DNA of 64,000 nt, from the NCBI GenBank assembly GCA_036275055.1, contig DASUEN010000171.1:42307-106306 (forward strand), written 5' to 3'. Both the position numbers and the translations under genes were made by a program. Positions 34,433 through 57,459 of this stretch are shown here, piece by piece. How positions within the stretch are numbered: the first letter of the stretch is position 1; every line of letters begins with the position of its first letter. This DNA comes from Thermoanaerobaculia bacterium (GTDB lineage: Bacteria; Acidobacteriota; Thermoanaerobaculia; Multivoradales; UBA5704). The notes under the pieces are model-generated. The model did no database searches. It saw nothing but the letters and a program-made list of their open reading frames with translations, and had not been told where the DNA came from.

Positions 34433-35238
34433 GCGATCAAGAGCCCGAGATCCGCCAGGCCGTGGAGGAGTGGACGGCCGAGACCGGCGGGGCCGGCGAG
34501 GGCGGCGGCGAGCACCCCGACGCGGAAACGCTGGCCGCCTACCATACCCGCGAGCTGCCGCCCGCGGCGGAGCAGCGCATCCAGGATCACCTCCTGCTCT
34601 GCCGCGAGTGCGCCGGGTTGCTGCTCGACCTCGAAGAGCTGGACGACCCGGATTTCGGCCGCGAGATCGAGGTTCCCGCGGGCACGGGAGAGGCCCTCTG
34701 GGACGGCCTGCGGCAGGAGATCACCCGCAAGGAGCCGGCGCCACCGGCGGCTGCGGTGATCCCGTTCCCCTCCCGCCCGCGCCCGGCTCCGCCGCTCTGG
34801 ATCTCCTCCCTGGTCGCCGCCCTCGTGGTGGCCGTGATCGGCCTCTCCGTCTGGGTCGCGTCGCTGCGCCGGACCGTGGGGGAGCTGTCCCGGCCGGAGG
34901 TCAACTCCACGGTGCTGGACCTCGTCCCCCGCGGCATCGGGCAGCGGGAAGGGGGGGAGGTACCGGCCGCCGTGGTGCCGTCCGGCTCCCGCATGGTCAC
35001 GCTCATCCTGAGCCCTGCCCGGCGTGGGGATTTCCAGGATTACGAAGCGGAGATCGCGCGCGCCGCCGGCGGGGCGGTGTGGCGGGAGCGGGGGCTGCGG
35101 CCGAACGACTACGGCTCGTTCAGCCTGACCCTGCCGCGCCGGGCCCTCGGCACCGGCGAGCACCGGCTCCGCCTGTTCGGCATCCGGAATGGCGCCCGGG
35201 AGGTCCTCGGCGAGTATGCGTTGCGGCTCGCGCCCTGA
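34429..35238 (+). CDS. Zinc-finger (ZAS, H-x3-C-x2-C) transmembrane anti-sigma factor
   Basis: ATGA overlap with the sigma gene. HLLLCRECAGLL motif; single TM LWISSLVAALVVAVIGLSVWVA; extracytoplasmic domain of about 125 aa. Confidence 0.8.
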   Translation: MSDQEPEIRQAVEEWTAETGGAGEGGGEHPDAETLAAYHTRELPPAAEQRIQDHLLLCRECAGLLLDLEELDDPDFGREIEVPAGTGEALWDGLRQEITRKEPAPPAAAVIPFPSRPRPAPPLWISSLVAALVVAVIGLSVWVASLRRTVGELSRPEVNSTVLDLVPRGIGQREGGEVPAAVVPSGSRMVTLILSPARRGDFQDYEAEIARAAGGAVWRERGLRPNDYGSFSLTLPRRALGTGEHRLRLFGIRNGAREVLGEYALRLAP

Positions 35239-41880: not shown

Positions 41881-42483
41881 TCACGGCCCGGGAGGCGGGC
41901 TGCCGACGAGCTCGCTGAGGAGGAAGGCACGGGCCTTCCGCCAGTCGCGTTTCGCCGTGCGCTCCGTCAGGCCCTGCACCTCGCCGATCTCGGCGAAACC
42001 CAGGCCGGCGAAGAAGCGGAGCTCGACGAGGCGGGCCAGGCGGGGGCTCTCGGCCGCCAGACGCTGCAGGGCGGCATCGAGGGCCAGGAGGTCGCCTGTG
42101 AGCCGGGCGTCTTCCGCGGCCGCCGGCTCTCCCCGTCCGTCGAGCTCGAGGCGCACGACGTCGCCCGAGCGTTTGGCGGCGTCCCGCCGGCGGGCGTAGT
42201 CCACCACCACATGACGCATCACCCGCGCCGCGAGGTTGAAGAAATGTGACCGGTCCACGGCGGAGAGGCCCGCCGGCTGGGCGAGGCGCAGGTAGGCCTC
42301 GTGCACAAGAACGGTGGTGCCGAGGGTCTCGCCGGGCCGTCCGCGGACGCCGAGCTGCCGGTGGGCCAGGGCGTGGAGATCGCGATAAACGCGGGAAAAC
42401 AGAGCGTTGGCGGCGGCTGGATCGCCCTCCCGGACCGCGGAGAGCAGGCGGGTGATTTCCTCGGTGGATTTGTAAGGAGACAT
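41881..42483 (-). CDS. ECF sigma factor of the Ser/Thr-kinase-associated type
   Basis: AGGAGG RBS. EITRLLSAVREGDPAAANALFSRVY...LVHEAYLRL...FAEIGEVQGLTERTAKRDW. It lies directly downstream of a TPR kinase. Confidence 0.9.
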   Translation of the reverse strand: MSPYKSTEEITRLLSAVREGDPAAANALFSRVYRDLHALAHRQLGVRGRPGETLGTTVLVHEAYLRLAQPAGLSAVDRSHFFNLAARVMRHVVVDYARRRDAAKRSGDVVRLELDGRGEPAAAEDARLTGDLLALDAALQRLAAESPRLARLVELRFFAGLGFAEIGEVQGLTERTAKRDWRKARAFLLSELVGSPPPGP

Positions 42484-42498
42484 TTTTCCTCCTGGATG

Positions 42499-45405: not shown

Positions 45406-45552
45406 GAGGGATCTCCGGGCTCCAGGTCGGATAGGTTGAGCTGTCAGAGAGTGACCTCGGGCGGGAAACCATTTCGAGCCCTGGAGCGGCGATTACTCGC
45501 TTCCTGCCGCTGTAGAATTCCGCTGATATCTGGGAAAGGAGACTGACCGGCC

Positions 45553-46317
45553 ATGTCATCGAGTCTTGGGCAAACCGTCCCCGTCAACGATATGGAGATG
45601 TATTACGAAACCCGCGGCGAAGGTGAGCCTCTGGTGCTGCTGCACGGCGGGGGAGGAGCAGGTATCAATTGGACACTTCACTTCCCGGAACCACCCGAAG
45701 GATACCGGCTCATCGTGCCGGACCTGCGCGGCCATGGGAGGTCGACCAATCCCGCGCAGAGGATCACCTACCGGCAATTGGCGCTCGACGTCTTCGCGCT
45801 GTTGGACCACTTGGGGATCGAACGCTTCAAGGCCGTGGGATTGAGTCTGGGCGCCAAGACGCTGCTGCACGTGGCCACGCAGCAGCCGGACCGGCTCGAA
45901 GCGGCTGTGCTGGTCAGCGCAACGCCCTACTTTCCGGAGCAGGCGCGTGCGATCATGCGCCAGATGACGCCGGAAAATCGCACCGACGCAGAGTGGGACC
46001 AGATGCGCCAGTGGCACCATCATGGTGACGAGCAGATCCGGGAGCTGTGGCGCCAGATGAACGCCTTCAAGGACAGCTATGACGACATGACCTTCACGCC
46101 GCCCTATCTATCGACGATCACCGCCCGCACGCTGATCGTGCATGGCGACCGGGATCCTCTGTACCCCGTGAGGCTGGCGCTGGAAATGTACGAGGCGATC
46201 CCCAAAGCGTTCCTCTGGGTCGTTCCGAACGGCGGGCATGGCCCCATCTTCGGCGAGAGGAGCCAGCGTTTCGTGGAGACAACGCTGGCGTTCTTGCGGG
46301 ACGACCCCAACCTTTAA
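45553..46317 (+). CDS. Alpha/beta hydrolase fold protein
   Basis: LVLLHGGGG, nucleophile elbow GLSLGA, C-terminal GGHGP. Its stop overlaps the convergent RND gene stop. Confidence 0.85.
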   Translation: MSSSLGQTVPVNDMEMYYETRGEGEPLVLLHGGGGAGINWTLHFPEPPEGYRLIVPDLRGHGRSTNPAQRITYRQLALDVFALLDHLGIERFKAVGLSLGAKTLLHVATQQPDRLEAAVLVSATPYFPEQARAIMRQMTPENRTDAEWDQMRQWHHHGDEQIRELWRQMNAFKDSYDDMTFTPPYLSTITARTLIVHGDRDPLYPVRLALEMYEAIPKAFLWVVPNGGHGPIFGERSQRFVETTLAFLRDDPNL

Positions 46318-49300
46318 TCCGTCACCGGCGACGGCTCTCCGATCACCTTTTTCGGGCGACTCTTGCGCACGGTGAACAGCGCTCCCAGGCGCGAGAAGAC
46401 CTTCGAGTTCGCCCAGTCGTCGAAGATGCTGTAACTGACCGGCGTGCCGATCAGCGTCAGCAGGAGCGAGAGGAGCTGGCCGCCCAGGATCACCGAGGCG
46501 ATGGCCCGGTTCGTCCCCGCTCCTGTACCGCTCGAAGCCACGAGCGGAATCATGCCGGCCACGAAGGCTAAGGTGGTCATCAGGATCGGCCGCAACCGGT
46601 CGCGGTTCGCCTCCCGAATGGCCTCCGCCCGCGGCATTCCCTGCGCCCGCAGCGCGTTGGTGTGGTCGATCTGCAGGATGGAGTTTTTCTTCACGATGCC
46701 GAACAGCACCAGGATACCGAGCATCGAAAAGATGTTGACCGACTGGTTCAGCATCAGGATCGACAGCAGCGCGAACGGCACCGTCATCGGCAGCGACAGC
46801 AGGATGGTGAACGGGTGGAGCCAGCTCTCGAACTGCGCTGCGAGGATCAGATACATGAAGATGATCGACAGCAGGAAGGCGATCATGAACGACGTGAACG
46901 CCTTCCCCTGCTCGCGCGAGCGGCCGGTCAAACCGGAGGAGAAGCCGGCCGGCATCTTGAGGTCCGCCGCCGTGCGGTTCAGCGTGTCGATGGCCGTCTG
47001 CGACGAGAAGCCCGGCCGCATGTTGGCGGTGACCATCACCTGCCGCCGCCGGTTGAGGCGATTGATCAGCGACGGGCCCGTGCCCTCGTTTAGAGTGACA
47101 AGATCGCGTAGCGGCACGGTGCCGCGGCTCAGCGAGGGCACTTCCATGGCGGCGATGGCCTGGGCGTTGTTGCGGTCGGCCTCGTCGGCCCGCACATGCA
47201 CCTCGTACTCCTCGCCTCCCTCGAAGTAGGAAGTGGCCTTCTGGCCGCCCACCAGGACGTTGAGCGAACTCGCGATGTCCTGCACCCGCACGCCGAGGTC
47301 GGCCGTCTTGTCGCGGTCGATGCGCACGCCGAGCTCGGGTTTGCCGACGATGAAGTTGGTGTCCACGTCGGTGGTGCCCGGCACCTTCACGAGCGCGGCC
47401 TTGAGCTTCTGCGCGTACTCGTTGAGCTTGTCGAGGTCGGGGCCGCCGATCCAGAACTGGATCTCGTTGTCCACGCCGTTGCCGAAGGCCGAGACCTGTG
47501 CCACCTGGGCCCGCACCTTGAGGGCTTCGTACTGCGGCAGGATCTCCTCGCGCACCCGCTGCATGAGGTGGAACTGATCTTCCTTGCGCGTCTTCGGATC
47601 GCTGAGCTGAACGTAAACCAGACCCAGGTTCAGCGTCTGCTGCGGGTCGTTGCCGATGGTGTTCACCGTCGTCACCACGCCGGGGAGCTTGCGCACCTGG
47701 CTGGCCACGGACTCCAGGATGGTCTGCGTCGTCGTCAGATTCGCTCCCTCGGGCACGCGCACCACCACCTGGAATTGCGACTCGTCGTCGTTGGGCAGGA
47801 AGTTTTTGTTCACCGCCATGAACAGGGGGATGGTGGAGAGGAACACCAGCACCATCGCGATCACCACCACCCAGCGGTGAGCCATGGCGAAGTCGAGCAA
47901 GCGCAGGTAGACGCGCTCGACGGCGGCGTAAACGCCCCGCTGGCGCGAGCCTTCCCCGGGCTGGGCGGTATCGTTCGACCGTAGCCACCGCGAGGCCAGC
48001 ATCGGCGTCAGCGTGAACGCGACGATCAGCGACACGGCGATGGCGAACGCCATGGTGATACCGAAGGAGTACATGAAGCGGCCCACGATGCCGCCCATGA
48101 AGGCCACCGGCAGGAAGACGGCGATCAATGACAGGCTGGTGGCGAGCACGGCGAGGCCCACCTCCTTGGTGCCCTCGACGGCCGCCTGCCGCGGCGTCAT
48201 CTTTTTCTCTTCCATGAAGCGGAAGATGTTTTCGAGCACCACCACCGCATCATCGATCACGATTCCCACCGCCAGCGTCAGCGCCAGCAGGGTGAGCACG
48301 TTGAGCGTGAAGCCCATGTACTTCATGGCGGCGAAGGTGGCGATGAGCGAGCTGGGGATGGCCACCGCCGAGATCAGCGTCGGCCGGAAGCGGCGCAGGA
48401 AGAGCCACACGATGCCGGCCGCGAACAGCGAGCCCACCATCAGGTGCTCTTTCACGGCGTCGACCGCGGCGACGATGAACTTCGACTGGTCGCGGACGAT
48501 CTCCGCGTGCCAGCCCGCGGGGATCTGCCCTTTGAGGTCCTCGAACCGCTCCTTGATGGCATCGACCACGGCGATCGTGTTGGTGCCTGACTGCTTGATC
48601 ACCTGCAGCACCACGGCCGGCTTGCCGGCGACGGTGGCGACCGACTCGGCCTCTTCGACTCCGTCCTCGATGCGGGCGACGTCGCCCACCCGCACCGGGT
48701 AGCCGTTGCGGGTGGTAATCGGCAGGCGCGCGAAGTCGGCGGGCGTGCCGACGCGGCCGTAGGTGCGCAGCGTCAGGTCGCGACGGTTCTGGGCCACCTT
48801 GCCGCCCGGAATCTGCACGTTCTGGCTCCCCAGGGCGTTGACCACGTCCGCCGCCGTCAGGTTCAGGCTGTCGAGCTTCGCCGTGTCGGTGATCACGTTG
48901 ATCTGCCGCAGCCGCTGACCCACGAGCTTCACCTGGCCGACGCCGAAAACGGTTTCCAAACGCCGCTTCAGCACGCGGTCGGCATATTCCGAAATGTCGC
49001 GCTGCGAGGCGGGGCCCGAAAGCGCGATCGAGATCACCGGATCGGCGTCCGCGTTGATCTTTTGAATGATCGGCGGATCGGCGTCCTTGGGCAGGTTGGC
49101 CAGGATGGCGTTGACCTTGTCGCGCACCTCCTGGGCGGCCACGTCCGGGTTCTTCTCCAGCGTGAATTGGATCTGCACCAGCGACACGTTCTCCGAGGAG
49201 GTGGAGATCAACTGATCGATGCCGTTGATGGTGTTGACCGCCTCCTCGATCTTGTCGGTGACCTCGGTCTCCATCTCCTCGGGCGCGGCGCCCGGCAGAA

Positions 49301-49451
49301 CGGTGGTGATGACGACGAAGGGGAACTCGACGTTCGGAAAGCGGTCGACGCCGAGCTGGAAGTAGGCGAAGATGCCTACCACCACCAGCGCGAGAATGAG
49401 CACCGTCGCGAAGACGGGCCGGCGGACGCAGAGCTCAGCGAGCTTTTGCAT
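46314..49451 (-). CDS. RND efflux permease (AcrB/HAE1-like)
   Basis: ATG 49451 follows GGGGAGGA. MQKLAELCVRRPVFATVLILALVVVG...; 12-TM plus two large loop architecture; 1045 aa. Confidence 0.95.
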   Translation of the reverse strand: MQKLAELCVRRPVFATVLILALVVVGIFAYFQLGVDRFPNVEFPFVVITTVLPGAAPEEMETEVTDKIEEAVNTINGIDQLISTSSENVSLVQIQFTLEKNPDVAAQEVRDKVNAILANLPKDADPPIIQKINADADPVISIALSGPASQRDISEYADRVLKRRLETVFGVGQVKLVGQRLRQINVITDTAKLDSLNLTAADVVNALGSQNVQIPGGKVAQNRRDLTLRTYGRVGTPADFARLPITTRNGYPVRVGDVARIEDGVEEAESVATVAGKPAVVLQVIKQSGTNTIAVVDAIKERFEDLKGQIPAGWHAEIVRDQSKFIVAAVDAVKEHLMVGSLFAAGIVWLFLRRFRPTLISAVAIPSSLIATFAAMKYMGFTLNVLTLLALTLAVGIVIDDAVVVLENIFRFMEEKKMTPRQAAVEGTKEVGLAVLATSLSLIAVFLPVAFMGGIVGRFMYSFGITMAFAIAVSLIVAFTLTPMLASRWLRSNDTAQPGEGSRQRGVYAAVERVYLRLLDFAMAHRWVVVIAMVLVFLSTIPLFMAVNKNFLPNDDESQFQVVVRVPEGANLTTTQTILESVASQVRKLPGVVTTVNTIGNDPQQTLNLGLVYVQLSDPKTRKEDQFHLMQRVREEILPQYEALKVRAQVAQVSAFGNGVDNEIQFWIGGPDLDKLNEYAQKLKAALVKVPGTTDVDTNFIVGKPELGVRIDRDKTADLGVRVQDIASSLNVLVGGQKATSYFEGGEEYEVHVRADEADRNNAQAIAAMEVPSLSRGTVPLRDLVTLNEGTGPSLINRLNRRRQVMVTANMRPGFSSQTAIDTLNRTAADLKMPAGFSSGLTGRSREQGKAFTSFMIAFLLSIIFMYLILAAQFESWLHPFTILLSLPMTVPFALLSILMLNQSVNIFSMLGILVLFGIVKKNSILQIDHTNALRAQGMPRAEAIREANRDRLRPILMTTLAFVAGMIPLVASSGTGAGTNRAIASVILGGQLLSLLLTLIGTPVSYSIFDDWANSKVFSRLGALFTVRKSRPKKVIGEPSPVTD

Positions 49452-50385
49452 GGGATTCCTCCCCTCCCAGCTCGACGCGCGCGAAAAGGCCAGGACGCAG
49501 GCGCCCATCGGAGTTGGGGAATTCGGCCTCGGCGAAGAAGGTGCGGGTGGACGGATCGATGACGCCGCCCAAGGTCTTGATCCGTCCACTGAACGTCTCG
49601 CCGGGATAAGGGTCCACACGGGCGATGATCGGTTGCCCGGTCTTAAGGTTCGGAAGGTACCGCTCGGGAACGCTGAAACGGAGCTTGAGCGGCGCCGTCT
49701 GCACGATGACGAAAGCGACGCCGGCTTCGCCGAGGCGCTCGCCCGGATTGGTCTTGCGCTGATCGACGACGCCGGTGATCGGCGAGCGGATCACCGCATC
49801 TTCCACTTTCTGGCGGGCCAGGGCCAACGCCGCCTCGGTCGATTGGCGTGCGGCCTGGGCCTGGTCCAGCGCGGCCTGGGCTTTGTCGAACGTGGCCTGT
49901 GGGATCGATTCGTTGGCGAGCAGCCCCTTCTTGCGGGTCCACTCGCGGCGGGCGTCGTCCTCGGCCGCCTTGGTCCGGGCGAGGTCCGCCTGGGTGCGCT
50001 GCACGTCGAGCTTCAGGTACTCGGTCTCCAGCACGAGCAGGGGCTGCCCCTTGCTCACCCGCTGCCCGGCGTCCACGTACACGGTCGCCACGCGACCCGG
50101 CGTCTTGGGCGCCACCTGGGAGCTTGCCGGGGAGACGAACTCGCCCGTGGGCTCCAGGCTGGAGAGAGCGCCCTTCGCGTTCGTCTCCTCTGGTTTCGTT
50201 GCGGCGGCCGGTGCCGGGGTGCCCGGGGTCTCCGGCTGGGCGAGCTTGGCGACGTCGGCCGGCAGGGCCGGGGTGGGAGTTGCCGCGGTGGCCGCAGCGT
50301 CCTTCGACTTATCGTGAGCGCAGGCGGCGGCCAGCATCAGGGTGATCAGCGTGGCCGCGGCGAGCGCGAGGCTCTTCCCATTCAT
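49435..50385 (-). CDS. RND efflux membrane fusion protein (HlyD family), lipoprotein
   Basis: ATG 50385 follows GAGGAG. Lipobox LMLAAAC; coiled-coil hairpin and beta-barrel pattern. It overlaps the RND start by 17 nt. Confidence 0.9.
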   Translation of the reverse strand: MNGKSLALAAATLITLMLAAACAHDKSKDAAATAATPTPALPADVAKLAQPETPGTPAPAAATKPEETNAKGALSSLEPTGEFVSPASSQVAPKTPGRVATVYVDAGQRVSKGQPLLVLETEYLKLDVQRTQADLARTKAAEDDARREWTRKKGLLANESIPQATFDKAQAALDQAQAARQSTEAALALARQKVEDAVIRSPITGVVDQRKTNPGERLGEAGVAFVIVQTAPLKLRFSVPERYLPNLKTGQPIIARVDPYPGETFSGRIKTLGGVIDPSTRTFFAEAEFPNSDGRLRPGLFARVELGGEESHAKAR

Positions 50386-51728
50386 TTCGTGCTCTCCTCG
50401 GTGAGGATCAGAGTCTTCAAAGTTCCAACCGCGGACCACACGTTCAGCTCGGCCAGGTCGCGGTTCAAGGTTCCGTTCACCACCGCCCGGCGCGAGGAAG
50501 CGAGGGCGGCTTCCGACGTTTGCAGGTCGAGCGAGGTCGCTTCCTGGGCGCGGTAGAGCTCGAAGCTCTGGCCGTACTCGGCCTCGGCCGCGGCGAGCTG
50601 CTCCTTGGCGAGGGCTAGGTCCGTCTCCGCCGTCTTCAGCTCGAGCAGGGCCTGGAGGACGTCCTCCCGCACCTGGCGCTTGGCCTCCGCCAGTGCGATC
50701 TCCGCCTGGCGCTGGCGCTCGCGGGCCACGGCCACCTTGGCCGAGATCTCGCCGCTGTCGAAGATCGGCATCGTCAGCTTGATCGAGAGCGACGCCGTCC
50801 GGTCCGCCGGGAACGACGTGCGCTGGCTGACGAAGTCTCCCTCGGCCCGCACGGTGGGGAGGCGGGCCGCCTGCTGCTTCGAGGTCTCGAGCTGGGCGAT
50901 CTGGAACGCCAGGTCCGCCTGCTGGACAGTGGGATGATTCGCCTGCGCTTGGGCTACCAGCTCCTCGGCGGGCGGCAGGGGCGGGAACTTGAGGTCCGGC
51001 GACGCCACCTGGAGCGTGGCGCCCGCGGGCTGGTCGAGGGCGAGGTTCAGCCGCAGGCGGCTGGCCGCGAGGTCCCGGCTTTGGACCGCCGCCGCCAGGG
51101 CCCGTTCGGCCGCCTTGGTATCCGTCTCCACCCGCAGCACGTCCACCTTGGTCTGCTCTCCCGCTTCATAGAAGGCCTGTGCCTGCTTGCGCCGGCGTGC
51201 GGCCAGCTCCAGGTTCCGCTGCTCCACGTCGACCAGGGCCTGCCCCTGGACGATCCCCAGGTAGTTGGAGGCCGTCGCCAGCAGGACCATGTCCTCCGTC
51301 GACCGCAGCCCCACCTCGGCGCTGGTCACTCCCATGCGCGCCTGGCGCAGCGCCTTGAGCTCCCGGGCACCGGCGTAGATGGGCTGGCTGAAGATGAGCC
51401 GCGCGTTCCAGTCGTTGCGCGGCAGGATCGTCGCCCGGAAGCCGTTCACGTCGAAAGCCACCTCCTGGCCGTTGCGGATGACCGCGCTTTCGAGGTCGAG
51501 GTGGGGCAAGATCGACGTCTTGAGCTGGCGCACCTGCGCTTGCGAGGTCGCCACTTGGGAGCGGGCCGTGGCCGTGGCCGCATTCGCCTCCAGCGCCCGC
51601 CGCAGCGCCTGTTGCAGCGTCAGCGCCGGAGCGGGCTCCTGGGCGCGGGCGGCGGGGGATGGCAACGACAACAGCGCGAGGGCCAGAGCGATTCCGCCCC
51701 TCCCGCCAGGTCTCGTCCAAAAATTCAT
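50382..51728 (-). CDS. TolC-family outer membrane efflux protein
   Basis: ATG 51728. Signal peptide, then two OEP repeats (LTLQQALRRALE...; VLQALLELKTAETDL...). ATGA overlap with the MFP gene. Confidence 0.9.
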   Translation of the reverse strand: MNFWTRPGGRGGIALALALLSLPSPAARAQEPAPALTLQQALRRALEANAATATARSQVATSQAQVRQLKTSILPHLDLESAVIRNGQEVAFDVNGFRATILPRNDWNARLIFSQPIYAGARELKALRQARMGVTSAEVGLRSTEDMVLLATASNYLGIVQGQALVDVEQRNLELAARRRKQAQAFYEAGEQTKVDVLRVETDTKAAERALAAAVQSRDLAASRLRLNLALDQPAGATLQVASPDLKFPPLPPAEELVAQAQANHPTVQQADLAFQIAQLETSKQQAARLPTVRAEGDFVSQRTSFPADRTASLSIKLTMPIFDSGEISAKVAVARERQRQAEIALAEAKRQVREDVLQALLELKTAETDLALAKEQLAAAEAEYGQSFELYRAQEATSLDLQTSEAALASSRRAVVNGTLNRDLAELNVWSAVGTLKTLILTEESTK

Positions 51729-51962
51729 GTCTCTTTTTCCTCCCGAGCCTCTCCTTTGCACCGAGAGGGTGCGAGGAGGGCCGGCCTACTGCCTTTTCGT
51801 CCAACGGCTGATTTCAAGGTAGATTTGCCGCGAAAGCTCCCGGGACCTCTCCGCCCCGCCCGAACCTTGGACATACGGTAGAAACCGGCTGAAGTTTACG
51901 GCGGAACCTTGTGCCCTTTCCTGCGTTCTATGAGAATCGTCCGGCGAGGAGAACCATTCCCC

Positions 51963-52874
51963 ATGATCCAGAAACGTCACATCCTGCTCCCGGCCCTCAC
52001 CGTCCTCACCCTCGCCTCTGGGGTCTCCGCCCAAACGGCGGCGAAGCCTCCCGGCTACCCCGAGCTGTTCGACCAGGCCTCGGTCTCCTACGAGAAGGGG
52101 GACTGGGCGCACTGTGGCGAGCACTTCGCCGCCGCCGCCAAGGCCGCCCCCCTCGATCGCCAGGCCGCCCGCGCCCTTTCCGGCGCCGCCCGCTGCCATG
52201 CCCATGGGGGTGACAAGGACGCCGCCCTCCACGACCTCGAGCAGGCTTCGTCTCGCGGCTACCGCGACGCCGACCGCGTCGCCACCGATCCCGACTTCGA
52301 TTCCCTGCGGCAGGACCCGCGCTGGAAGACCTTCGTCGACCAGGTGAGGGCCCGCGACACGGCGGCTCGCAAGGGCCCCCTCAACCCGGAGCTGGAGAAA
52401 CTCTACAACGAAGATCAGGCGGACCGTGCACCCGAGATGGGGAAGGTCGATTGGAGCGTCGTCGCCAAGCGGGACGAGGAGCGCCGCAAGCGGGTACTGG
52501 AGATCGTGGCCCAGGGGGGCACCAAGGAGGCCCCCGACTACGTTCACGCCGCCATGGTCCTCCAGCACGGCCAGGCGCCCGAGGACTTCCAGCACGCCCA
52601 TGAGTGGTGCCTCAAAGCCGTGGAGCTCGATCCGGACTACCCCGGCGCCCGCTGGCTCGCCGCCGCCGCCCAGGACCGCTACCTCATGAACCTCGGTAAG
52701 CCGCAACTCTACGGCACCCAGTTCAAGCGGGACCCTAAGGGCGGCCCCTGGTATCTCTACCAGGTTGATCCTACGATCACCGATGAAGAGCGAGCGAAGT
52801 GGGACGTGCCGCCCCTCGCCCGGGCCAAGGCGCGCGTCGAGGCGCTCAATGGGGGGACGTTCCAGCCGCATTGA
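51963..52874 (+). CDS. Secreted hypothetical protein (DUF6624-like, tentative)
   Basis: ATG 51963. Signal peptide MIQKRHILLPALTVLTLASGVSA, then a helical-repeat-like body. Confidence 0.55.
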   Translation: MIQKRHILLPALTVLTLASGVSAQTAAKPPGYPELFDQASVSYEKGDWAHCGEHFAAAAKAAPLDRQAARALSGAARCHAHGGDKDAALHDLEQASSRGYRDADRVATDPDFDSLRQDPRWKTFVDQVRARDTAARKGPLNPELEKLYNEDQADRAPEMGKVDWSVVAKRDEERRKRVLEIVAQGGTKEAPDYVHAAMVLQHGQAPEDFQHAHEWCLKAVELDPDYPGARWLAAAAQDRYLMNLGKPQLYGTQFKRDPKGGPWYLYQVDPTITDEERAKWDVPPLARAKARVEALNGGTFQPH

Positions 52875-53040: not shown

Positions 53041-53182
53041 GGAGGTATCGGCGCTCGCGACTAGCACAATCTTGCTATCTCGCATGGGAACGCTCCCCAG
53101 GCCAAACACTCTCCGTCTACCTCGCGTAGGAAATACCAGCGGCACTCTGCCGCCGAAGGTGTCTTCGCAGAAAGGAGACGAC

Positions 53183-54463
53183 ATGGCCTTCAAGTTGCGG
53201 ATCCTGTTCGACGGCCTCTGCGTTTTCGTTCCAAACACCGACGAGGGCAAAGGGATGCGGGTGCTGGTGATCGATGGACGCGCGCCCGGCCTCGCCTCGA
53301 ACGGTGAGAGCCAGGTCTCGCATATCCCGAGCCTGCGCTTCGCCATTGCCGACCTCGCCGCCGCCGATCACCAGCCAGCCTACCGCATCGACTACAGCTC
53401 GGCGGACCCCGTCCCGAAAGGCGCCTGGCTCCTCAACGGCGACGATCTCGAGATCCGCGTCGACGGGGCGCCGCTGGCCGACGGACCGCTCACCATCTTG
53501 CGGTCGGAGCCGAGCCGCGACTTCGCGCTCGTTCCGAGCATGCGGATCATCTATCCGGAGACTCTGGGAATCGAAGTCCGGGAGGAGTGCCTGGATCGAA
53601 ACCTCAAGCGGCTGGCCGATGCGGGCCTGGCGGCGCGAATCCGTCTCCAGAACGGCGTCGTCGGCGCTTGGGACGGCGCGGATGGCCGGTACATCTCCAG
53701 CGACGAGTTCATGTTCATCGGCACTCCGGGTTTCCATCGTCAAAGGGTTGCCGGCTGCGTCTTCTTCGAGACCGAGGTCGCGGGAGAGACAGTGGAGATC
53801 GTCTCGCGTCAGCGCGGTCATGGACCTGTTTTCCAGCCCGCCGATGGGCAAACGTTGGAAATCAGCCTCCGGAACGATCCGCCGGAGGAACTCATGGGGG
53901 CACGTCCGACGAACCCTGAGGCTGACTATGACTTCGAGTTGGTTTACAAGGTCGCCAAGAATCCCCCGGCCGAGCTCCGCGTCCCAGTTCTGGCCACGGC
54001 GGTCTGGCCCGGCGCGACGGCGGCGGCAACCGCTACAGAGCAGACCGGCGATTCGCCCGCGACGTTCAACCCAAGCAGCGAGGCGGACCCGCCCGGCAAA
54101 TGCATGCCGGCCAGCTACAATCCCAGCAGCGAGGCCGACCCGCCCGGCAGCAGGTGCATTCCGGCGAGCTACAATCCCAGTAGCGAAGCGGACCCTCCCG
54201 GTCGTTGCATGCCGGCGAGTTATAACCCGAGCAGTGAAGCGGGTGGCCGGCCGTATTGCTCCGGGGCAGAGTACAACCCGAGCCAGGAGGCGGGTGGCAT
54301 AGACACCGTCCGTTGTAATCCTGTGGCATACAACTCCAGTAGTGAAGCCGGAAAATACCCTGTCGTCTGCCTGCCTGCCGAATTCAACCCGAATCACGAA
54401 GCTGGTGGGTTCGCTCGTCCACTCTGCTTCGGCGTAATCTATAACCCAACTCCCGAAGCCTGA
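53183..54463 (+). CDS. Hypothetical 426-aa protein: unknown ~290-aa N-terminal domain plus seven tandem single-Cys peptide units delimited by [F/Y]-N-P-x-x-E-A
   Basis: AAAGGAG RBS and ATG 53183, with no signal peptide. The C-terminus reads ATF|NPSSEADPPGKCMPASY|NPSSEADPPGSRCIPASY|NPSSEADPPGRCMPASY|NPSSEAGGRPYCSGAEY|NPSQEAGGIDTVRCNPVAY|NSSSEAGKYPVVCLPAEF|NPNHEAGGFARPLCFGVIY|NPTPEA*. Confidence 0.75.
   Translation: MAFKLRILFDGLCVFVPNTDEGKGMRVLVIDGRAPGLASNGESQVSHIPSLRFAIADLAAADHQPAYRIDYSSADPVPKGAWLLNGDDLEIRVDGAPLADGPLTILRSEPSRDFALVPSMRIIYPETLGIEVREECLDRNLKRLADAGLAARIRLQNGVVGAWDGADGRYISSDEFMFIGTPGFHRQRVAGCVFFETEVAGETVEIVSRQRGHGPVFQPADGQTLEISLRNDPPEELMGARPTNPEADYDFELVYKVAKNPPAELRVPVLATAVWPGATAAATATEQTGDSPATFNPSSEADPPGKCMPASYNPSSEADPPGSRCIPASYNPSSEADPPGRCMPASYNPSSEAGGRPYCSGAEYNPSQEAGGIDTVRCNPVAYNSSSEAGKYPVVCLPAEFNPNHEAGGFARPLCFGVIYNPTPEA
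54065..54460 (+). repeat. Coding tandem repeat (7 units of 17-19 codons plus a terminal half unit)
   Basis: See the 53183..54463 CDS. The units are conserved at the amino-acid level and diverged at synonymous sites. Confidence 0.85.
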
Positions 54464-54465
54464 TT

Positions 54466-56355
54466 TCAACCCGCGGGGAGCGGCGTTACAACCGCTCCCC
54501 GGTCGGGCTCGCCCTCGAGGATGCCGTTCGCAATCCAGAGGGCGAAGTCCTGGCGCGGGGGGGCGACGCAACCTGTCAGGCAGTCCATCGCAATCTCGAG
54601 GGTGGTCACGGAAACCTGCGCAATCTCCACTGCCACGGCTTCCGCGGGCAGATAAACGTTCTGGAGATTGTCCCATCCCTCCCGCTCGGCGGCGCCTGGG
54701 ACCGACCAGCCTCCCGCGAAATGGTTTCCGAAGTACGTCTTCCCACCAACCTCGACTCGCAGGGCTAGACGATTGACGATCGCCGGGATCTCGGGAGTGC
54801 CACTACCCAGAGGGCCGGGCGGATCGGTCCAGGCGAGGGTGATCTTGAGTGGCTGCGCGGCGTCGGCGAGGCGGATCGGCCAGATTCTCTGCTGGCCTGA
54901 GGAGGTAAAGAGAAGGGTTTGATCGAGCCAGGCGCGCCTCAGATTGGGGGCCAGGACGTTCTCGAGGTTGAGCCTTCCCCAGCCTTGCCGGCGATTGGGA
55001 ATGGGGCCGCCGTCGCCCGTATCCACGGCGCCGTTGACGATCAGGGCCCGCAGCAAGGCCGGTGACGGATCGCGGCCGGCCGTGGTCCGCCACCACTGCG
55101 TCAGCAGGGCGCAGGCTCCCGAGGTCAGCGCTGTGGCTCCAGAGGTGCCCCCTCCCCAGGTGAGCCGTCGGCTCAGGTACTTTCTTTCTCCCGGCTGGGC
55201 GCCATGGTTGGCCGTGGCAGACCATTGCCCAGGCGCCACCACGTGAGGACGGATGCGGCCATCGCCGCAATTGCCGAGACTGCTCGCATAAAAGCCGGTG
55301 TCGTAGTCGCCCGAATAGACCGCGGAGATGGTTTCGGCTTCGATTCCGCCGTCGCGCGGCCGGTAGGTGCTCGAGTTGCCGGTTACCAGGACGTTTTTCG
55401 CCCCTGCAGGACGGTTGAGGCCCTTGGTTCCTTCGTTTCCGGCAGCGAAACAGATGGTGAGAGGCTTCGGTGTCGGTCCCCTCGGATCGGAATTGCGCAC
55501 CATCCGATCGTAGAGTGCCTCCTCGGAACCATAGTCCATGGGGTTGCGCGTGCCCTTGCCAAAGGAGTTGTTCTGCACCGTCCCCGGGGCGCCGGAAGGA
55601 CCCGCCTCGGTTACCGTTTGGCGGCAGACCTCCTCGGGCGGGTCGAAGCGGTCTTGAGCCAGCAGGTCCGCCGCGGGCGCCACCCCCAAGCCGTAAAGGT
55701 ATCCGGCCTCGTCGCGCTCCTCCAGATAACGGCCGGCCGCGAGCCCTGCCATTGCCGTACCGTGCCAGGATTTCTTACCGTTCGCGAGGTCGCGAATACG
55801 GCCGGTAAAGGCGGGGTGATCGACGTTGACTCCGCTATCGACGATGCCGATCGTCACTCCCGCGCCGTCGAGCCCGTGCGCCCTCAGCCATGCGAGATAG
55901 GAGCCGCTCGGTATGCCTTCCCGGTCGTATTGGCCTGCGAGGATGAGGCCGGTCACCTCGTCCTGAAGGACCGGCGGCTCCCGGCTTTCGACCGCCAGTA
56001 CGTGCGGCACGGCGAGGACTCTCCGCTGCGCCTCTTCCGTCAAGCGTGCTGGTATACGCAGGAAGTACACCCCGGTGGAAGGCTGCGCGGTCAGAACGAC
56101 CCAGACGCTTCGGCTTCCACCCTTGGGGAAATCAACGCGCGGCTTCATCGCCGGAGTCAGCGGCACGACCTGGCGAACGAAAGAGAGCCCCTCTGCCGTG
56201 CGAAGTGCAGCGTCTGTGCCCGAGCCGAGATAGGTCCCGGCAGATCGATACTGGAGAAGCTCTACGCCGCGGCGGCGCAACGCCTCCGGCCAGCAGGGCT
56301 CGACCGGGCCGGCCAACTCCACGTAAGCAAGCGAGCGGTGTCCAGAGTGGCTCAT
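54466..56355 (-). CDS. Subtilisin-like S8 serine peptidase, no signal peptide, with N-terminal pro-like region and C-terminal beta domain
   Basis: The start is taken at ATG 56355 (MSHSGHRS...), because the longer ORF overlaps the divergent amidase gene. Catalytic triad contexts: GIVDSGV (Asp), SWHGTAMAG (His), GGGTSGATALTSG (Ser). Confidence 0.85.
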   Translation of the reverse strand: MSHSGHRSLAYVELAGPVEPCWPEALRRRGVELLQYRSAGTYLGSGTDAALRTAEGLSFVRQVVPLTPAMKPRVDFPKGGSRSVWVVLTAQPSTGVYFLRIPARLTEEAQRRVLAVPHVLAVESREPPVLQDEVTGLILAGQYDREGIPSGSYLAWLRAHGLDGAGVTIGIVDSGVNVDHPAFTGRIRDLANGKKSWHGTAMAGLAAGRYLEERDEAGYLYGLGVAPAADLLAQDRFDPPEEVCRQTVTEAGPSGAPGTVQNNSFGKGTRNPMDYGSEEALYDRMVRNSDPRGPTPKPLTICFAAGNEGTKGLNRPAGAKNVLVTGNSSTYRPRDGGIEAETISAVYSGDYDTGFYASSLGNCGDGRIRPHVVAPGQWSATANHGAQPGERKYLSRRLTWGGGTSGATALTSGACALLTQWWRTTAGRDPSPALLRALIVNGAVDTGDGGPIPNRRQGWGRLNLENVLAPNLRRAWLDQTLLFTSSGQQRIWPIRLADAAQPLKITLAWTDPPGPLGSGTPEIPAIVNRLALRVEVGGKTYFGNHFAGGWSVPGAAEREGWDNLQNVYLPAEAVAVEIAQVSVTTLEIAMDCLTGCVAPPRQDFALWIANGILEGEPDRGAVVTPLPAG

Positions 56356-56424
56356 CAGACGGATAGAATAGCCCCCTTCGAAGGGACTCAACGCGTCAGC
56401 CCTTGTGGTAGCGTCTGCGTCGCC

Positions 56425-57459
56425 ATGCGAATCCATGTCGCCGTCGCCGCGTCCATCCTTGGGCTCACCGCTGCCGTCACGGCCGCCCAGCAGGGGCCGA
56501 AAACACACCGCCTCGAAGCCACGCCGTCCACCGTTGCCTACGGCTACTACTGGTCCGAAGCGAAGCCGGTGCTGCGCATCGCCTCGGGCGACGTCATCGA
56601 CGTGGACACGCTGTTGACGAACACTCCCGCCGGGCTCCAGCGTGCCGGCGTGCCCGACGACAAGATCCAGAGCTCGCTGAAAGCGATCGTGGCCGAGGTC
56701 ACCGGAGACCGTCGCGGGCCTGGGGGGCACATCCTCACCGGTCCGGTGTATGTCGAGGGAGCGCAGCCGGGCGACGTGCTCGAGGTGAAGATCCTATCGA
56801 TCGATTTCGCGATCGGCTACGGCTACAACGGCTGCAGCGGCTTCCTGCCGGAAAACTGCGATCGTTCCCTCGCCCCGCGCATCCTTCCCATCGATGCGAA
56901 GGCGAGGACCGCGGAATTCGCGCCTGGCATCGTGATCCCACTACATCCGTTCTTCGGCAGCATGGGCGTCGCACCGGCGCCGGAGCTCGGCCGGGTCAGC
57001 AGCAACCCGCCGGGGAAACACGCGGGCAATCTCGACAACAAGGAGCTCGTCGCCGGTTCGACGCTGTTCATTCCGGTCTTCACACCTGGCGCGCTGTTCG
57101 AGGTGGGCGATGGCCACGCCGCGCAGGGTGACGGCGAGGTCGATCAGACGGCGATCGAGACCTCCTTGCGCGCGCGGATTCAGCTCACCGTCCGCAAAGA
57201 CCTGAAGCTCACATGGCCGCGTGCCGAGACGGCGGCCGACTACATCAGCATGGCGACCGATCCGGATTTGACCGTCGCCACGAAGGCCGCGATCCAGGAG
57301 ATGATCGATTTCGTCGCGTCGACGCGGAAGATGACGAAGCACCAGGCGTACCAACTGGTGAGCATCGCCGGCAACGTCGCGGTGACGCAGCTCGTCGACA
57401 AGCCGAACGTCGGCGTCCACGTGCGGCTGCCGAAGAGCATCTTCAAGGAGGGCTCGTGA
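56425..57459 (+). CDS. Acetamidase/formamidase (FmdA/AmdA) family protein, secreted
   Basis: ATG 56425. Signal peptide MRIHVAVAASILGLTAAVTAA; GPVYVEGAQPGDVLEVKI and GDGHAAQGDGEV are typical of the family. Confidence 0.85.
   Translation: MRIHVAVAASILGLTAAVTAAQQGPKTHRLEATPSTVAYGYYWSEAKPVLRIASGDVIDVDTLLTNTPAGLQRAGVPDDKIQSSLKAIVAEVTGDRRGPGGHILTGPVYVEGAQPGDVLEVKILSIDFAIGYGYNGCSGFLPENCDRSLAPRILPIDAKARTAEFAPGIVIPLHPFFGSMGVAPAPELGRVSSNPPGKHAGNLDNKELVAGSTLFIPVFTPGALFEVGDGHAAQGDGEVDQTAIETSLRARIQLTVRKDLKLTWPRAETAADYISMATDPDLTVATKAAIQEMIDFVASTRKMTKHQAYQLVSIAGNVAVTQLVDKPNVGVHVRLPKSIFKEGS

What the first reader, a model, noticed from the sequence alone, without database searches (positions are those of the whole stretch)
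54065..54460. Repeat units show fixed C-x4-[Y/F]-N-P geometry and synonymous recoding, indicating selection on the peptide rather than the DNA
The seven Cys-to-aromatic segments are CMPASY, CIPASY, CMPASY, CSGAEY, CNPVAY, CLPAEF and CFGVIY. The Cys always lies exactly five residues before the aromatic residue that precedes N-P/S-x-x-E-A, while the segment between EA and Cys varies (4-8 residues). The boundary NPSSEA is encoded four different ways: AAC CCA AGC AGC GAG GCG, AAT CCC AGC AGC GAG GCC, AAT CCC AGT AGC GAA GCG and AAC CCG AGC AGT GAA GCG. Third positions here are more A/T-rich than in the rest of the genome. This pattern rules out a recent slippage repeat. It fits a conserved recognition or cross-link motif (for example a Cys-to-Tyr/Phe or Cys-to-terminus macrocycle) with hypervariable positions, as in multi-core natural-product precursors.
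Basis: seen in the sequence. Interest (0 to 1): 0.7.

Follow-up and report, generated by a model that had tools for sequence, protein, structure and literature searches.

The report
Amplified cysteine tail beside a protease
The repeats are real and under selection as peptide: they are seven copies of a short cysteine-bearing tail that defines an undescribed bacterial protein family always encoded next to proteases, so they are probably cut into many small peptides, though no cross-linking chemistry is shown.

Summary
Window 54065-54460 encodes the tail of a 426-aa cytoplasmic protein (53183-54463,+). The tail holds seven modules of the form linker(5-7)-C-x4-[Y/F]-N-[P/S]-x-x-E-A. The modules are heavily recoded at synonymous sites.

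The motif is conserved in 224 of 239 units from 33 homologs. All named or genome-derived homologs are Thermoanaerobaculia.

New findings:
- The tail is an amplified copy of a single C-terminal "Cys tail". That tail ends a wider, unannotated family of about 300-aa proteins. The family domain model is confident (pLDDT 93) and has no Foldseek match in PDB or BFVD.
- The tail Cys is the only invariant residue across 104 diverse members.
- Family genes always sit beside proteases. Most lineages have an upstream TPR-CHAT protease plus a second protease (S8, C39-like, M10, or fused trypsin or zincin). This clade has one intracellular subtilase, placed convergently 2 nt away.
- Stand-alone ORFs with a short leader and 3-9 cores occur in sister loci.
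- Internal units keep S-x-E-A strictly (E in 188 of 195). Terminal units do not. This points to cleavage after Ala.

Best reading: a multi-copy cassette of peptides released by a protease. It is built like a multi-core precursor. No modifying enzyme or exporter is conserved. A Cys-aromatic macrocycle is untested.

The parts
53171..53177 (+). Shine-Dalgarno-like AAAGGAG, 5 nt upstream of the ATG at 53183
   Evidence: Sequence read. Homologs start at the equivalent MAFKL/MSFKL.
53183..54463 (+). Gene for the 426-aa family protein (N-domain, loop, seven-module Cys tail, stop). No signal peptide.
   Evidence: ORF; translation. 34 homologs found. No Pfam, NCBIfam, PADLOC or PHROGs hit.
53183..54007 (+). 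Conserved beta-rich N-domain (aa 1-275). It carries the near-invariant G11, L12, H47, R152, G158, N231, Y255 and P268.
   Evidence: Alignments A1 and A4. AF2 model of the single-core homolog P0030 has pLDDT 93 and pTM 0.90. No Foldseek match in PDB or BFVD and no PDB profile match. dN/dS is about 0.12 against L036.
54008..54085 (+). Low-complexity loop (WPGATAAATATEQTGDSPATF) ending in the first boundary element NPSSEA (54068-54085). This boundary precedes the first Cys module.
   Evidence: An x-S-x-E-A element lies at linker distance before the first Cys in at least 21 of 33 homologs. The equivalent loop in P0030 (285-294, VEAPSGEATI) has pLDDT below 50.
54086..54136 (+). Module 1: DPPGK-CMPASY-NPSSEA
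   Evidence: Identical at protein level in L036.
54137..54190 (+). Module 2: DPPGSR-CIPASY-NPSSEA (lineage-specific duplicate)
54191..54241 (+). Module 3: DPPGR-CMPASY-NPSSEA (lineage-specific duplicate; 10 synonymous and 1 nonsynonymous codon changes against module 1)
54242..54292 (+). Module 4: GGRPY-CSGAEY-NPSQEA
   Evidence: The ortholog in L036 is GGKPYCTGAEYNPSQEA.
54293..54349 (+). Module 5: GGIDTVR-CNPVAY-NSSSEA
54350..54403 (+). Module 6: GKYPVV-CLPAEF-NPNHEA
54404..54460 (+). Module 7 (terminal): GGFARPL-CFGVIY-NPTPEA-COOH. It has the ancestral-type tail, with hydrophobic residues at +3/+4 and x-P-x-A at the end.
   Evidence: terminal units differ systematically from internal ones. 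In the P0030 model the last ~10 residues dock as a strand at pLDDT 88.
54466..56355 (-). Partner protease: a 629-aa intracellular subtilase (Peptidase_S8) with triad D173/H198/S405. It has an N-terminal ~160-aa pro-region-like domain, a C-terminal ~170-aa domain and no signal peptide. It is convergent, with its stop codon 2 nt from the precursor stop.
   Evidence: Pfam E 8e-32. Closest solved relatives are SubHal and KP-43. Start and triad. The same gene is adjacent in L001, L002, L003/4/6, L007, L009, L011 and L036.

Best explanation
The 396 bp encode the C-terminal tail of a cytoplasmic 426-aa protein. The tail is seven tandem copies of a 17-19-residue module, linker(5-7)-C-x4-[Y/F]-N-[P/S]-x-x-E-A.

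This module is an amplified copy of the single C-terminal 'Cys tail' of an undescribed protein family. Each family member has a ~280-aa beta-rich domain with no Foldseek match in PDB or BFVD, a disordered loop, and a tail that folds back onto the domain. Family genes are always coupled to proteases. In this Thermoanaerobaculia clade the partner is one dedicated intracellular subtilase.

Most likely mechanism: the subtilase cuts after the ...S-x-E-A boundary that precedes every module. The tail is then released as seven Cys-containing peptides of about 17-19 residues. Each peptide ends in a free ...[Y/F]-N-P-S-x-E-A carboxy-terminus, like the ancestral tail. The N-domain is the binding partner of the C-x4-aromatic element, either as receptor or as modifier.

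In architecture this is a multi-core precursor processed by a protease.

Shown: the motif, its selection, the family, the invariant Cys, the protease linkage, the stand-alone multi-core ORFs, and the difference between internal and terminal units.

Inferred: the cleavage, its position, the docking (an AF2 model only), and any role of the released peptides. I rate an intracellular regulatory role (latch or decoy of a proteolytic switch) about as likely as an exported peptide product.
For: - Motif and codon recoding.
- 239 units in 33 homologs carry C, +5 Y/F (224), +7 P (213), +10 E (202) and +11 A (232). Every protein ends exactly after the last A.
- The subtilase is adjacent in 8 of 8 independent loci of the clade, while other neighbours differ.
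- Internal boundaries keep S/N at +8 (94%) and E at +10 (188/195). Terminal units have P at +9 (19/28) and a free choice at +10. The E is therefore required only where a peptide bond follows.
- An x-S-x-E-A element also precedes the first module. In the P0030 model it falls in the only disordered loop, just before the docked tail.
- Stand-alone ORFs with a ~20-aa leader and 3-9 cores lie next to the N-domain gene and the subtilase in L003/4/6, L007 and L011.
- Wider family: 131 representatives, nearly all ~270-370 aa with one tail. The tail Cys is the only invariant column in 104 sequences.
- TPR-CHAT lies immediately upstream in all but L028, L029 and L033 of the 22 metagenome loci, and also in L010, L012 and L013. 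In L035 the CHAT ORF is downstream.
- A second protease of four catalytic classes is encoded downstream or fused.
Against: - No biochemical evidence of cleavage exists, and the substrate preference of the subtilase is unknown.
- No exporter or modifying enzyme is conserved. The RND pump occurs only in the window and L036.
- The window's tail is predicted disordered, not docked, although that alignment was shallow.
- The subtilase of this clade is not orthologous to the second-protease S8 of the CHAT cassettes, so continuity of mechanism is assumed.
- Four different protease classes in the wider family argue against one sequence-specific processing site.
Confidence: 0.5

Rival explanations
1. 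This is the first reader's reading made concrete: a true RiPP. Each core ends at the Tyr/Phe, and the Cys is joined to it. One route is a thiolactone or macrocycle formed when the subtilase acyl-enzyme at Y/F is resolved by the Cys thiol, as in AIP or PatG chemistry. The other is a Cys-aromatic cross-link made by the fused N-domain acting as a new self-modifying maturase, as in borosins or BURP proteins. N-P-S-x-E-A would be a recognition spacer that is discarded.
For: - Fixed Cys-to-aromatic spacing in 224 of 239 units.
- Aromatic residue in a subtilisin-friendly P1 position.
- Fused and split (stand-alone) precursors, as in borosins.
- Invariant Cys with near-invariant His47, R152, N231 and Y255 in the N-domain.
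- The tail is modelled docked on the domain.
- One sister locus carries a P450 next to four stand-alone precursors.
Against: - In the wider family only 62 of 104 tails have an aromatic residue at +5, while the Cys is invariant.
- Phe replaces Tyr in ~30% of units, which disfavours a Tyr-specific cross-link.
- No known maturase family is present or conserved. The P450 occurs in one locus only.
- The strict E-A conservation at internal boundaries, and the free Ala terminus retained from the ancestor, fit a unit that ends at Ala.
- No conserved exporter or immunity gene.
- The ancestral context is TPR-CHAT cassettes.
Confidence: 0.2
2. This would be a protease-gated switch with no peptide product. 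The N-domain, or the partner protease, is a latent effector. The Cys tail is an autoinhibitory latch, following the same logic as the C-terminal peptide of bacterial gasdermins. The extra tail copies and the stand-alone multi-tail ORFs are spare latches or decoy substrates. They set a threshold for activation by the protease, like a labile antitoxin.
For: - The wider family sits in cassettes of a ~1100-aa TPR-CHAT protease, the family protein and a swappable second protease (S8, C39-like, M10). The family domain is sometimes fused directly to a trypsin or zincin domain. This is a typical conflict-system pattern.
- The model shows a disordered loop followed by a docked C-terminal peptide. Bacterial gasdermins cleaved by CHAT proteases have the same arrangement (bioRxiv 10.1101/2021.06.07.447441).
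- Tandem paralogs are common.
- No exporter is conserved.
Against: - The fold is not gasdermin-like and has no PDB match. There is no PADLOC hit.
- The family is not found on plasmids or phages.
- This clade has lost the TPR-CHAT sensor.
- Internal units are less hydrophobic than terminal ones, so they may not dock.
- Nothing shows that the N-domain is toxic.
Confidence: 0.25
3. The tail could be an unprocessed, disordered repeat region, such as a thiol- or metal-binding or tethering tail, that only happens to lie next to a protease gene.
For: - The tail is predicted disordered in the window protein.
- There is one Cys per unit.
- The composition is rich in Pro, Ser and Gly.
Against: - Protease adjacency holds in 8 of 8 loci of the clade and in nearly all loci of the wider family.
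- Boundary residues are strictly conserved and behave differently at the terminal unit.
- Stand-alone multi-core ORFs exist.
Confidence: 0.05

Closest known systems
Cyanobactin precursors (PatE-type) with PatA/PatG subtilisin-like proteases
   Same: Several cores sit in one precursor. Short conserved recognition sequences flank more variable cores. An S8 protease is encoded next to the precursor.
   Different: - The precursor carries a folded ~280-aa domain instead of a ~35-aa leader.
- The S8 is SubHal/KP-43-like. It matches no NCBIfam family at its curated cut-off, and the solved PatA protease (3zxx, my identification) matches only at E 3e-4.
- There is no YcaO cyclodehydratase.
- The Cys is invariant but nothing is present to heterocyclise it.
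Fungal Kex2-processed repeat proteins (KEPs; PMC7329392, seen)
   Same: Tandem short peptides are separated by a conserved protease site and released by a subtilase-family protease. Copy number varies between relatives.
   Different: KEPs are eukaryotic, travel the secretory pathway and use dibasic sites. They have a signal peptide. They have no folded N-domain and no invariant Cys.
Borosins (core peptide fused to its own modifying enzyme, with split variants); plant BURP-domain cyclases
   Same: A large folded N-terminal domain is fused to one or several C-terminal cores. Relatives exist in which the cores are separate small ORFs (own knowledge for borosin and BURP; for this family).
   Different: The N-domain has no methyltransferase or BURP signature, and no Pfam hit at all. 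No catalytic activity is known for it.
Bacterial gasdermin plus protease operons (bioRxiv 10.1101/2021.06.07.447441)
   Same: A ~270-300-aa beta-rich protein has a disordered cleavage loop followed by a short C-terminal peptide docked on the core. It is encoded next to a TPR-CHAT or other protease, and tandem paralogs occur.
   Different: - A pLDDT-93 model gives no Foldseek match to any PDB structure, gasdermins included.
- There is no PADLOC hit.
- A second protease is part of the cassette.
- The defining residue is a tail Cys rather than an N-terminal palmitoylated Cys.
- The tail is amplified in this clade.
AgrD/AgrB autoinducing peptides (thiolactones)
   Same: The Cys lies at a fixed distance from the residue that would become the C-terminus. 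A short variable N-terminal 'tail' precedes the ring. An acidic, Pro-containing follower comes after it (own knowledge).
   Different: The ring would have 6 residues, not 5. There is no AgrB. The precursor is not a small amphipathic peptide. The phylum is Gram-negative (Acidobacteriota).
Cysteine switch of matrix metalloproteinase pro-domains (PRCGxPD)
   Same: A conserved Cys sits in a Pro-rich motif (R-P-x-C-P-G) at the end of an N-terminal regulatory domain. That domain lies directly before, or is encoded next to, a protease, including M10 and zincin types.
   Different: Most partner proteases here are Ser or Cys proteases with no zinc to ligate. The motif is not PRCGxPD. The resemblance is recalled from memory and was not tested.

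Membership tests
Cyanobactin pathway | PatA/PatG-type subtilisin protease or macrocyclase | tested here: not met
   NCBIfam gives only weak sub-threshold hits to mycosin and CspBA. The best PDB relatives are SubHal and KP-43 at 5e-29 and 1.5e-28, against 3e-4 for the solved PatA protease 3zxx (my identification).
Cyanobactin pathway | PatE-like precursor leader, and a YcaO heterocyclase or prenyltransferase in the cluster | tested here: not met
   The precursor has no Pfam or NCBIfam hit. Neighbours are an RND pump, a TPR protein, a formamidase and DUF4287. No YcaO appears in L001-L004, L009, L011 or L036.
Bacterial gasdermin | Gasdermin N-terminal pore-forming fold | tested here: not met
   The pLDDT-93 model of P0030 gives a best Foldseek E of 0.05 and TM 0.12 against PDB, with no gasdermin entry listed. 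The profile search against PDB sequences gives nothing. There is no Pfam or PADLOC hit.
Bacterial gasdermin | Adjacent protease that removes a docked inhibitory C-terminal peptide | tested here: inconclusive
   Protease adjacency is met. The docked tail after a disordered loop is modelled only. Cleavage and inhibition cannot be tested here.
Borosin | Fused SAM-dependent alpha-N-methyltransferase domain | tested here: not met
   The N-domain gives no Pfam hit at E<=0.1.
RiPP in the general sense | Ribosomal precursor with core(s), a dedicated post-translational modification enzyme, and proteolytic release | tested here: inconclusive
   Cores and a dedicated protease are present, and stand-alone multi-core ORFs exist. 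No recognised modification enzyme is conserved. Whether the N-domain is one cannot be told from sequence.
AgrD/AIP | AgrB-type membrane cysteine protease and a 5-residue thiolactone | tested here: not met
   No AgrB-like gene appears among the neighbours scanned. The spacing would give a 6-residue ring.
Simple slippage or low-complexity repeat | Near-identical DNA units with no excess of synonymous change | tested here: not met
   TRF sees only the first 3.4 units, at 78% identity. Unit 1 and unit 3 differ by 10 synonymous and 1 nonsynonymous codon changes. At fixed positions pN is 0.06 with synonymous differences saturated.

The most novel reading that the evidence does not exclude
A previously undescribed, widespread family of protease-gated bacterial proteins, whose domain has no Foldseek match in PDB or BFVD, uses a Cys-bearing C-terminal tail as its working part. 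In Thermoanaerobaculia this tail has been turned into a multi-copy peptide cassette, fused or stand-alone.

This could be a new RiPP class whose maturase is the fused N-domain, acting on the invariant Cys. Alternatively it could be a 'multi-fuse' for a proteolytic cell-fate or immunity switch. That switch would be analogous to gasdermin activation but unrelated to it.
Probability: 0.35. Interest if true: 0.85.

Novelty: new variant of a known kind. Interest (0 to 1): 0.7.

Why it matters
If the reading holds, it defines a new protein family: 131 representatives at the 50% identity level, no Pfam, NCBIfam, PADLOC or PDB counterpart, and a confident model with no Foldseek match in PDB or BFVD.

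The family's single invariant residue is a tail cysteine. Its genes are hard-wired to proteases of five kinds (CHAT, S8, C39-like, M10/zincin and trypsin).

That makes it a candidate for either a new proteolytic signalling or immunity module, or a new route to ribosomal peptides. The Thermoanaerobaculia variant offers a natural experiment, because the same element occurs as a single tail, as 5-17 fused copies, and as stand-alone multi-core ORFs.

The system is directly testable with two genes, the precursor and the subtilase.

Tried and rejected
Searches that gave nothing:
- Pfam, NCBIfam, PADLOC and PHROGs scans of the precursor and of distant relatives: no hit.
- The first AF2 run, on the window protein with 27 close homologs, was poor (pLDDT 49.5). 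Its Foldseek result was meaningless.
- The second AF2 run, on P0030 with 104 diverse sequences, was good. It still matched nothing in PDB or BFVD.
- The profile search against PDB sequences gave nothing.
- tblastn of the N-domain and of two distant members against plasmids, and of the N-domain against phages: no match.
- Six literature searches found no description of this family or motif.

Tool calls that failed or were uninformative:
- The second homolog search, with A2, mostly returned the same close family.
- The third homolog search, with the tail alone, returned nothing, probably because of composition filtering.

Ideas considered and rejected:
- Gasdermin homology was rejected on fold.
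- An N-glycosylation sequon (N-P-S) was rejected because Pro at the middle position blocks it (own knowledge).
- The FGE C-x-P-x-R motif was rejected because there is no FGE fold and no Arg.
- An alpha-2-macroglobulin-like thioester was rejected because there is no CxEQ motif.
- Eukaryote-like proteins with CPxGTYNP repeats matched the repeat part of the profile. They have two Cys per unit and are unrelated repeats of a different kind.
- The RND efflux operon upstream was rejected as a dedicated exporter. It is conserved only in the closest relative.
Full report
**Observation**

Window 54065-54460 lies inside an ORF whose biological start is the ATG at 53183. An AAAGGAG element sits 5 nt upstream, and homologs start at the equivalent MAFKL/MSFKL. 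The product has 426 aa and no signal peptide.

From residue 295 the sequence reads F-NPSSEA followed by seven modules:
- DPPGK-CMPASY-NPSSEA
- DPPGSR-CIPASY-NPSSEA
- DPPGR-CMPASY-NPSSEA
- GGRPY-CSGAEY-NPSQEA
- GGIDTVR-CNPVAY-NSSSEA
- GKYPVV-CLPAEF-NPNHEA
- GGFARPL-CFGVIY-NPTPEA, then the stop codon

Every statement of the finding about the peptide and the codons checks out. The exception is the linker length, which is 5-7 here rather than 4-8.

GC3 is 0.67 in the tail, against 0.80 in the rest of the gene and 0.76-0.90 in neighbouring genes. Only 4 of 20000 shuffles of the tail gave even one full motif.

TRF sees only the first 3.4 units, with period 51 and 78% matches. These are younger duplicates, because the closest relative (L036) has one of them where the window has three. 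Even so, unit 1 and unit 3 differ at 10 synonymous codons and 1 nonsynonymous codon. Across all unit pairs the fixed positions have pN 0.06 with saturated synonymous change. The variable positions have pN 0.53. Selection therefore acts on the peptide.

**Orthologs**

A search of 5.8 billion proteins found 34 homologs. All named or genome-derived ones are Thermoanaerobaculia. Only 4 of 185,579 GTDB species representatives carry the family.

The homologs share a ~295-aa N-terminal region and carry 1-17 modules. In 239 modules, Y/F is at +5 in 224, N at +6 in 172, P at +7 in 213, S/N at +8 in 202, E at +10 in 202 and A at +11 in 232.

Against L036, the N-domain shows 53 synonymous-only and 22 nonsynonymous codon changes in 275 codons. 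Four clearly orthologous modules show 17 and 12 in 77 codons. The tail is under purifying selection, but more relaxed than the domain, and units are gained and lost.

**Context in the clade**

An S8 subtilase gene is convergent and immediately adjacent. The stop codons are 2 nt apart in the window and overlap in L009. This holds in the window, L001, L002, L003/4/6, L007, L009 and L036. In L011 the gene is divergent and upstream. All other neighbours differ between loci.

The window enzyme spans 54466-56355 on the minus strand. It has 629 aa, triad D173/H198/S405 and no signal peptide. It carries a pro-region-like N-terminus and an extra C-terminal domain. Its closest solved relatives are SubHal and KP-43.

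No known peptide-modifying enzyme and no exporter is conserved. The RND pump upstream is shared only with L036.

Two or more family genes in tandem are common (L001, L002, L036).

Sister loci also carry stand-alone ORFs made of a ~20-aa leader plus 3-9 cores. There is one in L003/4/6, one in L007 (the 87-aa P0117), and four in L011 next to a single-core family gene, the subtilase and a P450.

**The wider family**

A profile search of 1.84 billion cluster representatives gave 131 hits. Most are stand-alone proteins of 270-370 aa. They end with a single copy of the element, for example ...ALSRPICPGAVFDAHPEA...NPKCPPAMFAEHPEA and ...RPLLCAPIIYNPDDRA.

In an alignment of 104 diverse members the tail Cys is the only invariant column. 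G11, L12, H47, R152, G158, N231, Y255 and P268 are at least 90% conserved. C-x4-aromatic holds in 62 of 104 tails, and 36 of those 62 have exactly six residues after the aromatic residue. The window's repeat is therefore an amplification of an ancestral single tail.

With this deep alignment AF2 gives a confident model of the single-core member P0030 (pLDDT 93, pTM 0.90). The domain is beta-rich. The only disordered segment is 285-294 (VEAPSGEATI). The last ~10 residues form a strand at pLDDT 88, meaning the tail docks on the domain.

Foldseek finds nothing in PDB (best E 0.05, TM 0.12) or BFVD, and a profile search of PDB sequences finds nothing. No Pfam, NCBIfam, PADLOC or PHROGs family matches.

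**Context of the wider family**

A metagenome scan gave 22 loci. In all of them except L028, L029 and L033, and also in L010, L012 and L013, a ~1100-aa TPR-CHAT protease gene lies immediately upstream on the same strand; in L035 the CHAT ORF is downstream.

Wherever enough downstream sequence exists, the next gene is a second protease of variable class:
- S8 in seven loci
- C39-like in four or five loci
- matrixin M10 in one locus

In L034 the family domain and its Cys motif are fused to a trypsin domain. In L013 they are fused to an HExxHxxGxxH zincin domain.

This pattern, a sensor-like initiator protease plus a family protein plus a swappable protease, is what one expects of a proteolytic switch or conflict system. 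The loop-then-docked-tail anatomy parallels bacterial gasdermins, whose C-terminal peptide is removed by CHAT-type proteases (bioRxiv 10.1101/2021.06.07.447441). The fold is not a gasdermin fold, however.

The Thermoanaerobaculia clade has lost the adjacent TPR-CHAT. A TPR-CHAT gene does exist 15 kb away at 35129-38185, but it is not of the cassette type. The clade keeps one unrelated subtilase.

**Where is the cut?**

Internal and terminal units differ systematically.
- Internal units have S/N at +8 in 94% and E at +10 in 188 of 195.
- Terminal units have H/S at +8, P at +9 in 19 of 28, and K/E/other at +10.
- Terminal units are more hydrophobic at +3/+4 (64%/54% against 31%/22%), like ancestral single tails.

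The S-x-E-A element is thus strictly required only where a peptide bond follows. A similar element also precedes the first module at linker distance in at least 21 of 33 proteins. In P0030 it falls in the disordered loop just before the docked tail.

The simplest reading is cleavage after Ala. This would give ~17-19-mer peptides that reproduce the ancestral tail with its free Ala carboxylate. A second cut after Y/F cannot be excluded.

**Mechanism and rivals**

- Best supported (0.5): the tail is a multi-copy cassette released by the adjacent subtilase at the S-x-E-A boundaries, and the N-domain is the partner of the Cys-x4-aromatic element.
Its support is the fixed spacing, the aromatic P1 position, and the fused/split architecture resembling borosins. 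Against it are the lack of any maturase, Phe in 30% of units, the loss of the aromatic residue in 40% of the wider family, and the Ala-terminal logic.
- Rival (0.25): a protease-gated switch in which the tails are latches or decoys and no peptide is a product. Its support is the CHAT cassettes. Against it are the absence of any toxicity evidence and the less hydrophobic internal units.
- Rival (0.05): an unprocessed disordered tail.

**Novelty**

No paper in the library describes this family or motif. The logic is known in two forms: multi-core precursors cut by a subtilase, and proteins gated by removal of a C-terminal peptide. The family, its domain with no Foldseek match in PDB or BFVD, the invariant tail cysteine, and the amplification of a gating tail into a peptide cassette are not known. 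I therefore rate it a new variant of a known kind, with interest 0.7.

Noticed in passing
window 35129-38185 (+): A 1019-aa TPR-CHAT protease gene (CHAT E 6.5e-71, several TPR families) lies 15 kb upstream of the finding. It is only distantly related to the cassette-type TPR-CHATs (E 8e-26 against ~1e-100 among cassettes), and no family gene follows it.
   Followed up: partly
window 54461-54468: The precursor and subtilase genes are convergent, with only 2 nt between their stop codons. In L009 the two genes overlap by ~170 nt. No terminator-like hairpin lies between them, so read-through transcripts would be antisense to the partner gene.
   Followed up: no
L011 522-7375: This sister locus carries a cytochrome P450, then three stand-alone multi-core ORFs (4, 9 and 7 cores; spacer Y-R-P-S-x-x-A), the subtilase, a single-core family gene (P0033) and a fourth multi-core ORF cut by the contig end.
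   Followed up: partly
L034 7998-9650; L013 3215-5383: The family domain plus its Cys motif is fused to a trypsin domain (Pfam E 4e-8) in L034. In L013 (P0166, 722 aa) it is fused to a C-terminal region with an HELGHVFGGLH zincin signature. Each lies directly next to a TPR-CHAT gene (downstream of it in L034, upstream of it in L013).
   Followed up: partly
window 56400-57459 (+): A formamidase/acetamidase gene with a signal-peptide-like start sits between the subtilase and the DUF4287/DUF5655 gene. It is absent at this position in the otherwise syntenic L036. The long ORF on the opposite strand (55204-57459) overlaps the subtilase gene and is mostly spurious.
   Followed up: no
window 41881-51761: This stretch holds an ECF sigma factor (41881-42483,-), a 968-aa Ser/Thr kinase with TPRs (42499-45405,-), an alpha/beta hydrolase (45553-46314,+) and an RND efflux operon of AcrB, MFP and OEP (46314-51761,-). 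The pump is syntenic with L036 only.
   Followed up: partly
window 51909-52874 (+): A 321-aa TPR-containing protein (weak DUF6624 hit) lies directly upstream of the precursor. It appears conserved as a 300-aa gene in L036 but not in L001-L003, so it is probably not part of the module.
   Followed up: partly
P0080, P0107, P0071: Long eukaryote-like proteins with C-P-x-G-T-Y-N-P-x-x-G repeats matched the repeat part of the profile at E 1e-6 to 1e-11. They have two Cys per unit and look like extracellular disulfide-rich repeats. The similarity is taken as convergent.
   Followed up: partly
P0035: An independent multi-core member from a different lineage (41% identical N-domain) carries eight AICGSAVYNAEDQ-type units. 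Tail amplification therefore happened more than once, or the spacer diverged strongly.
   Followed up: no
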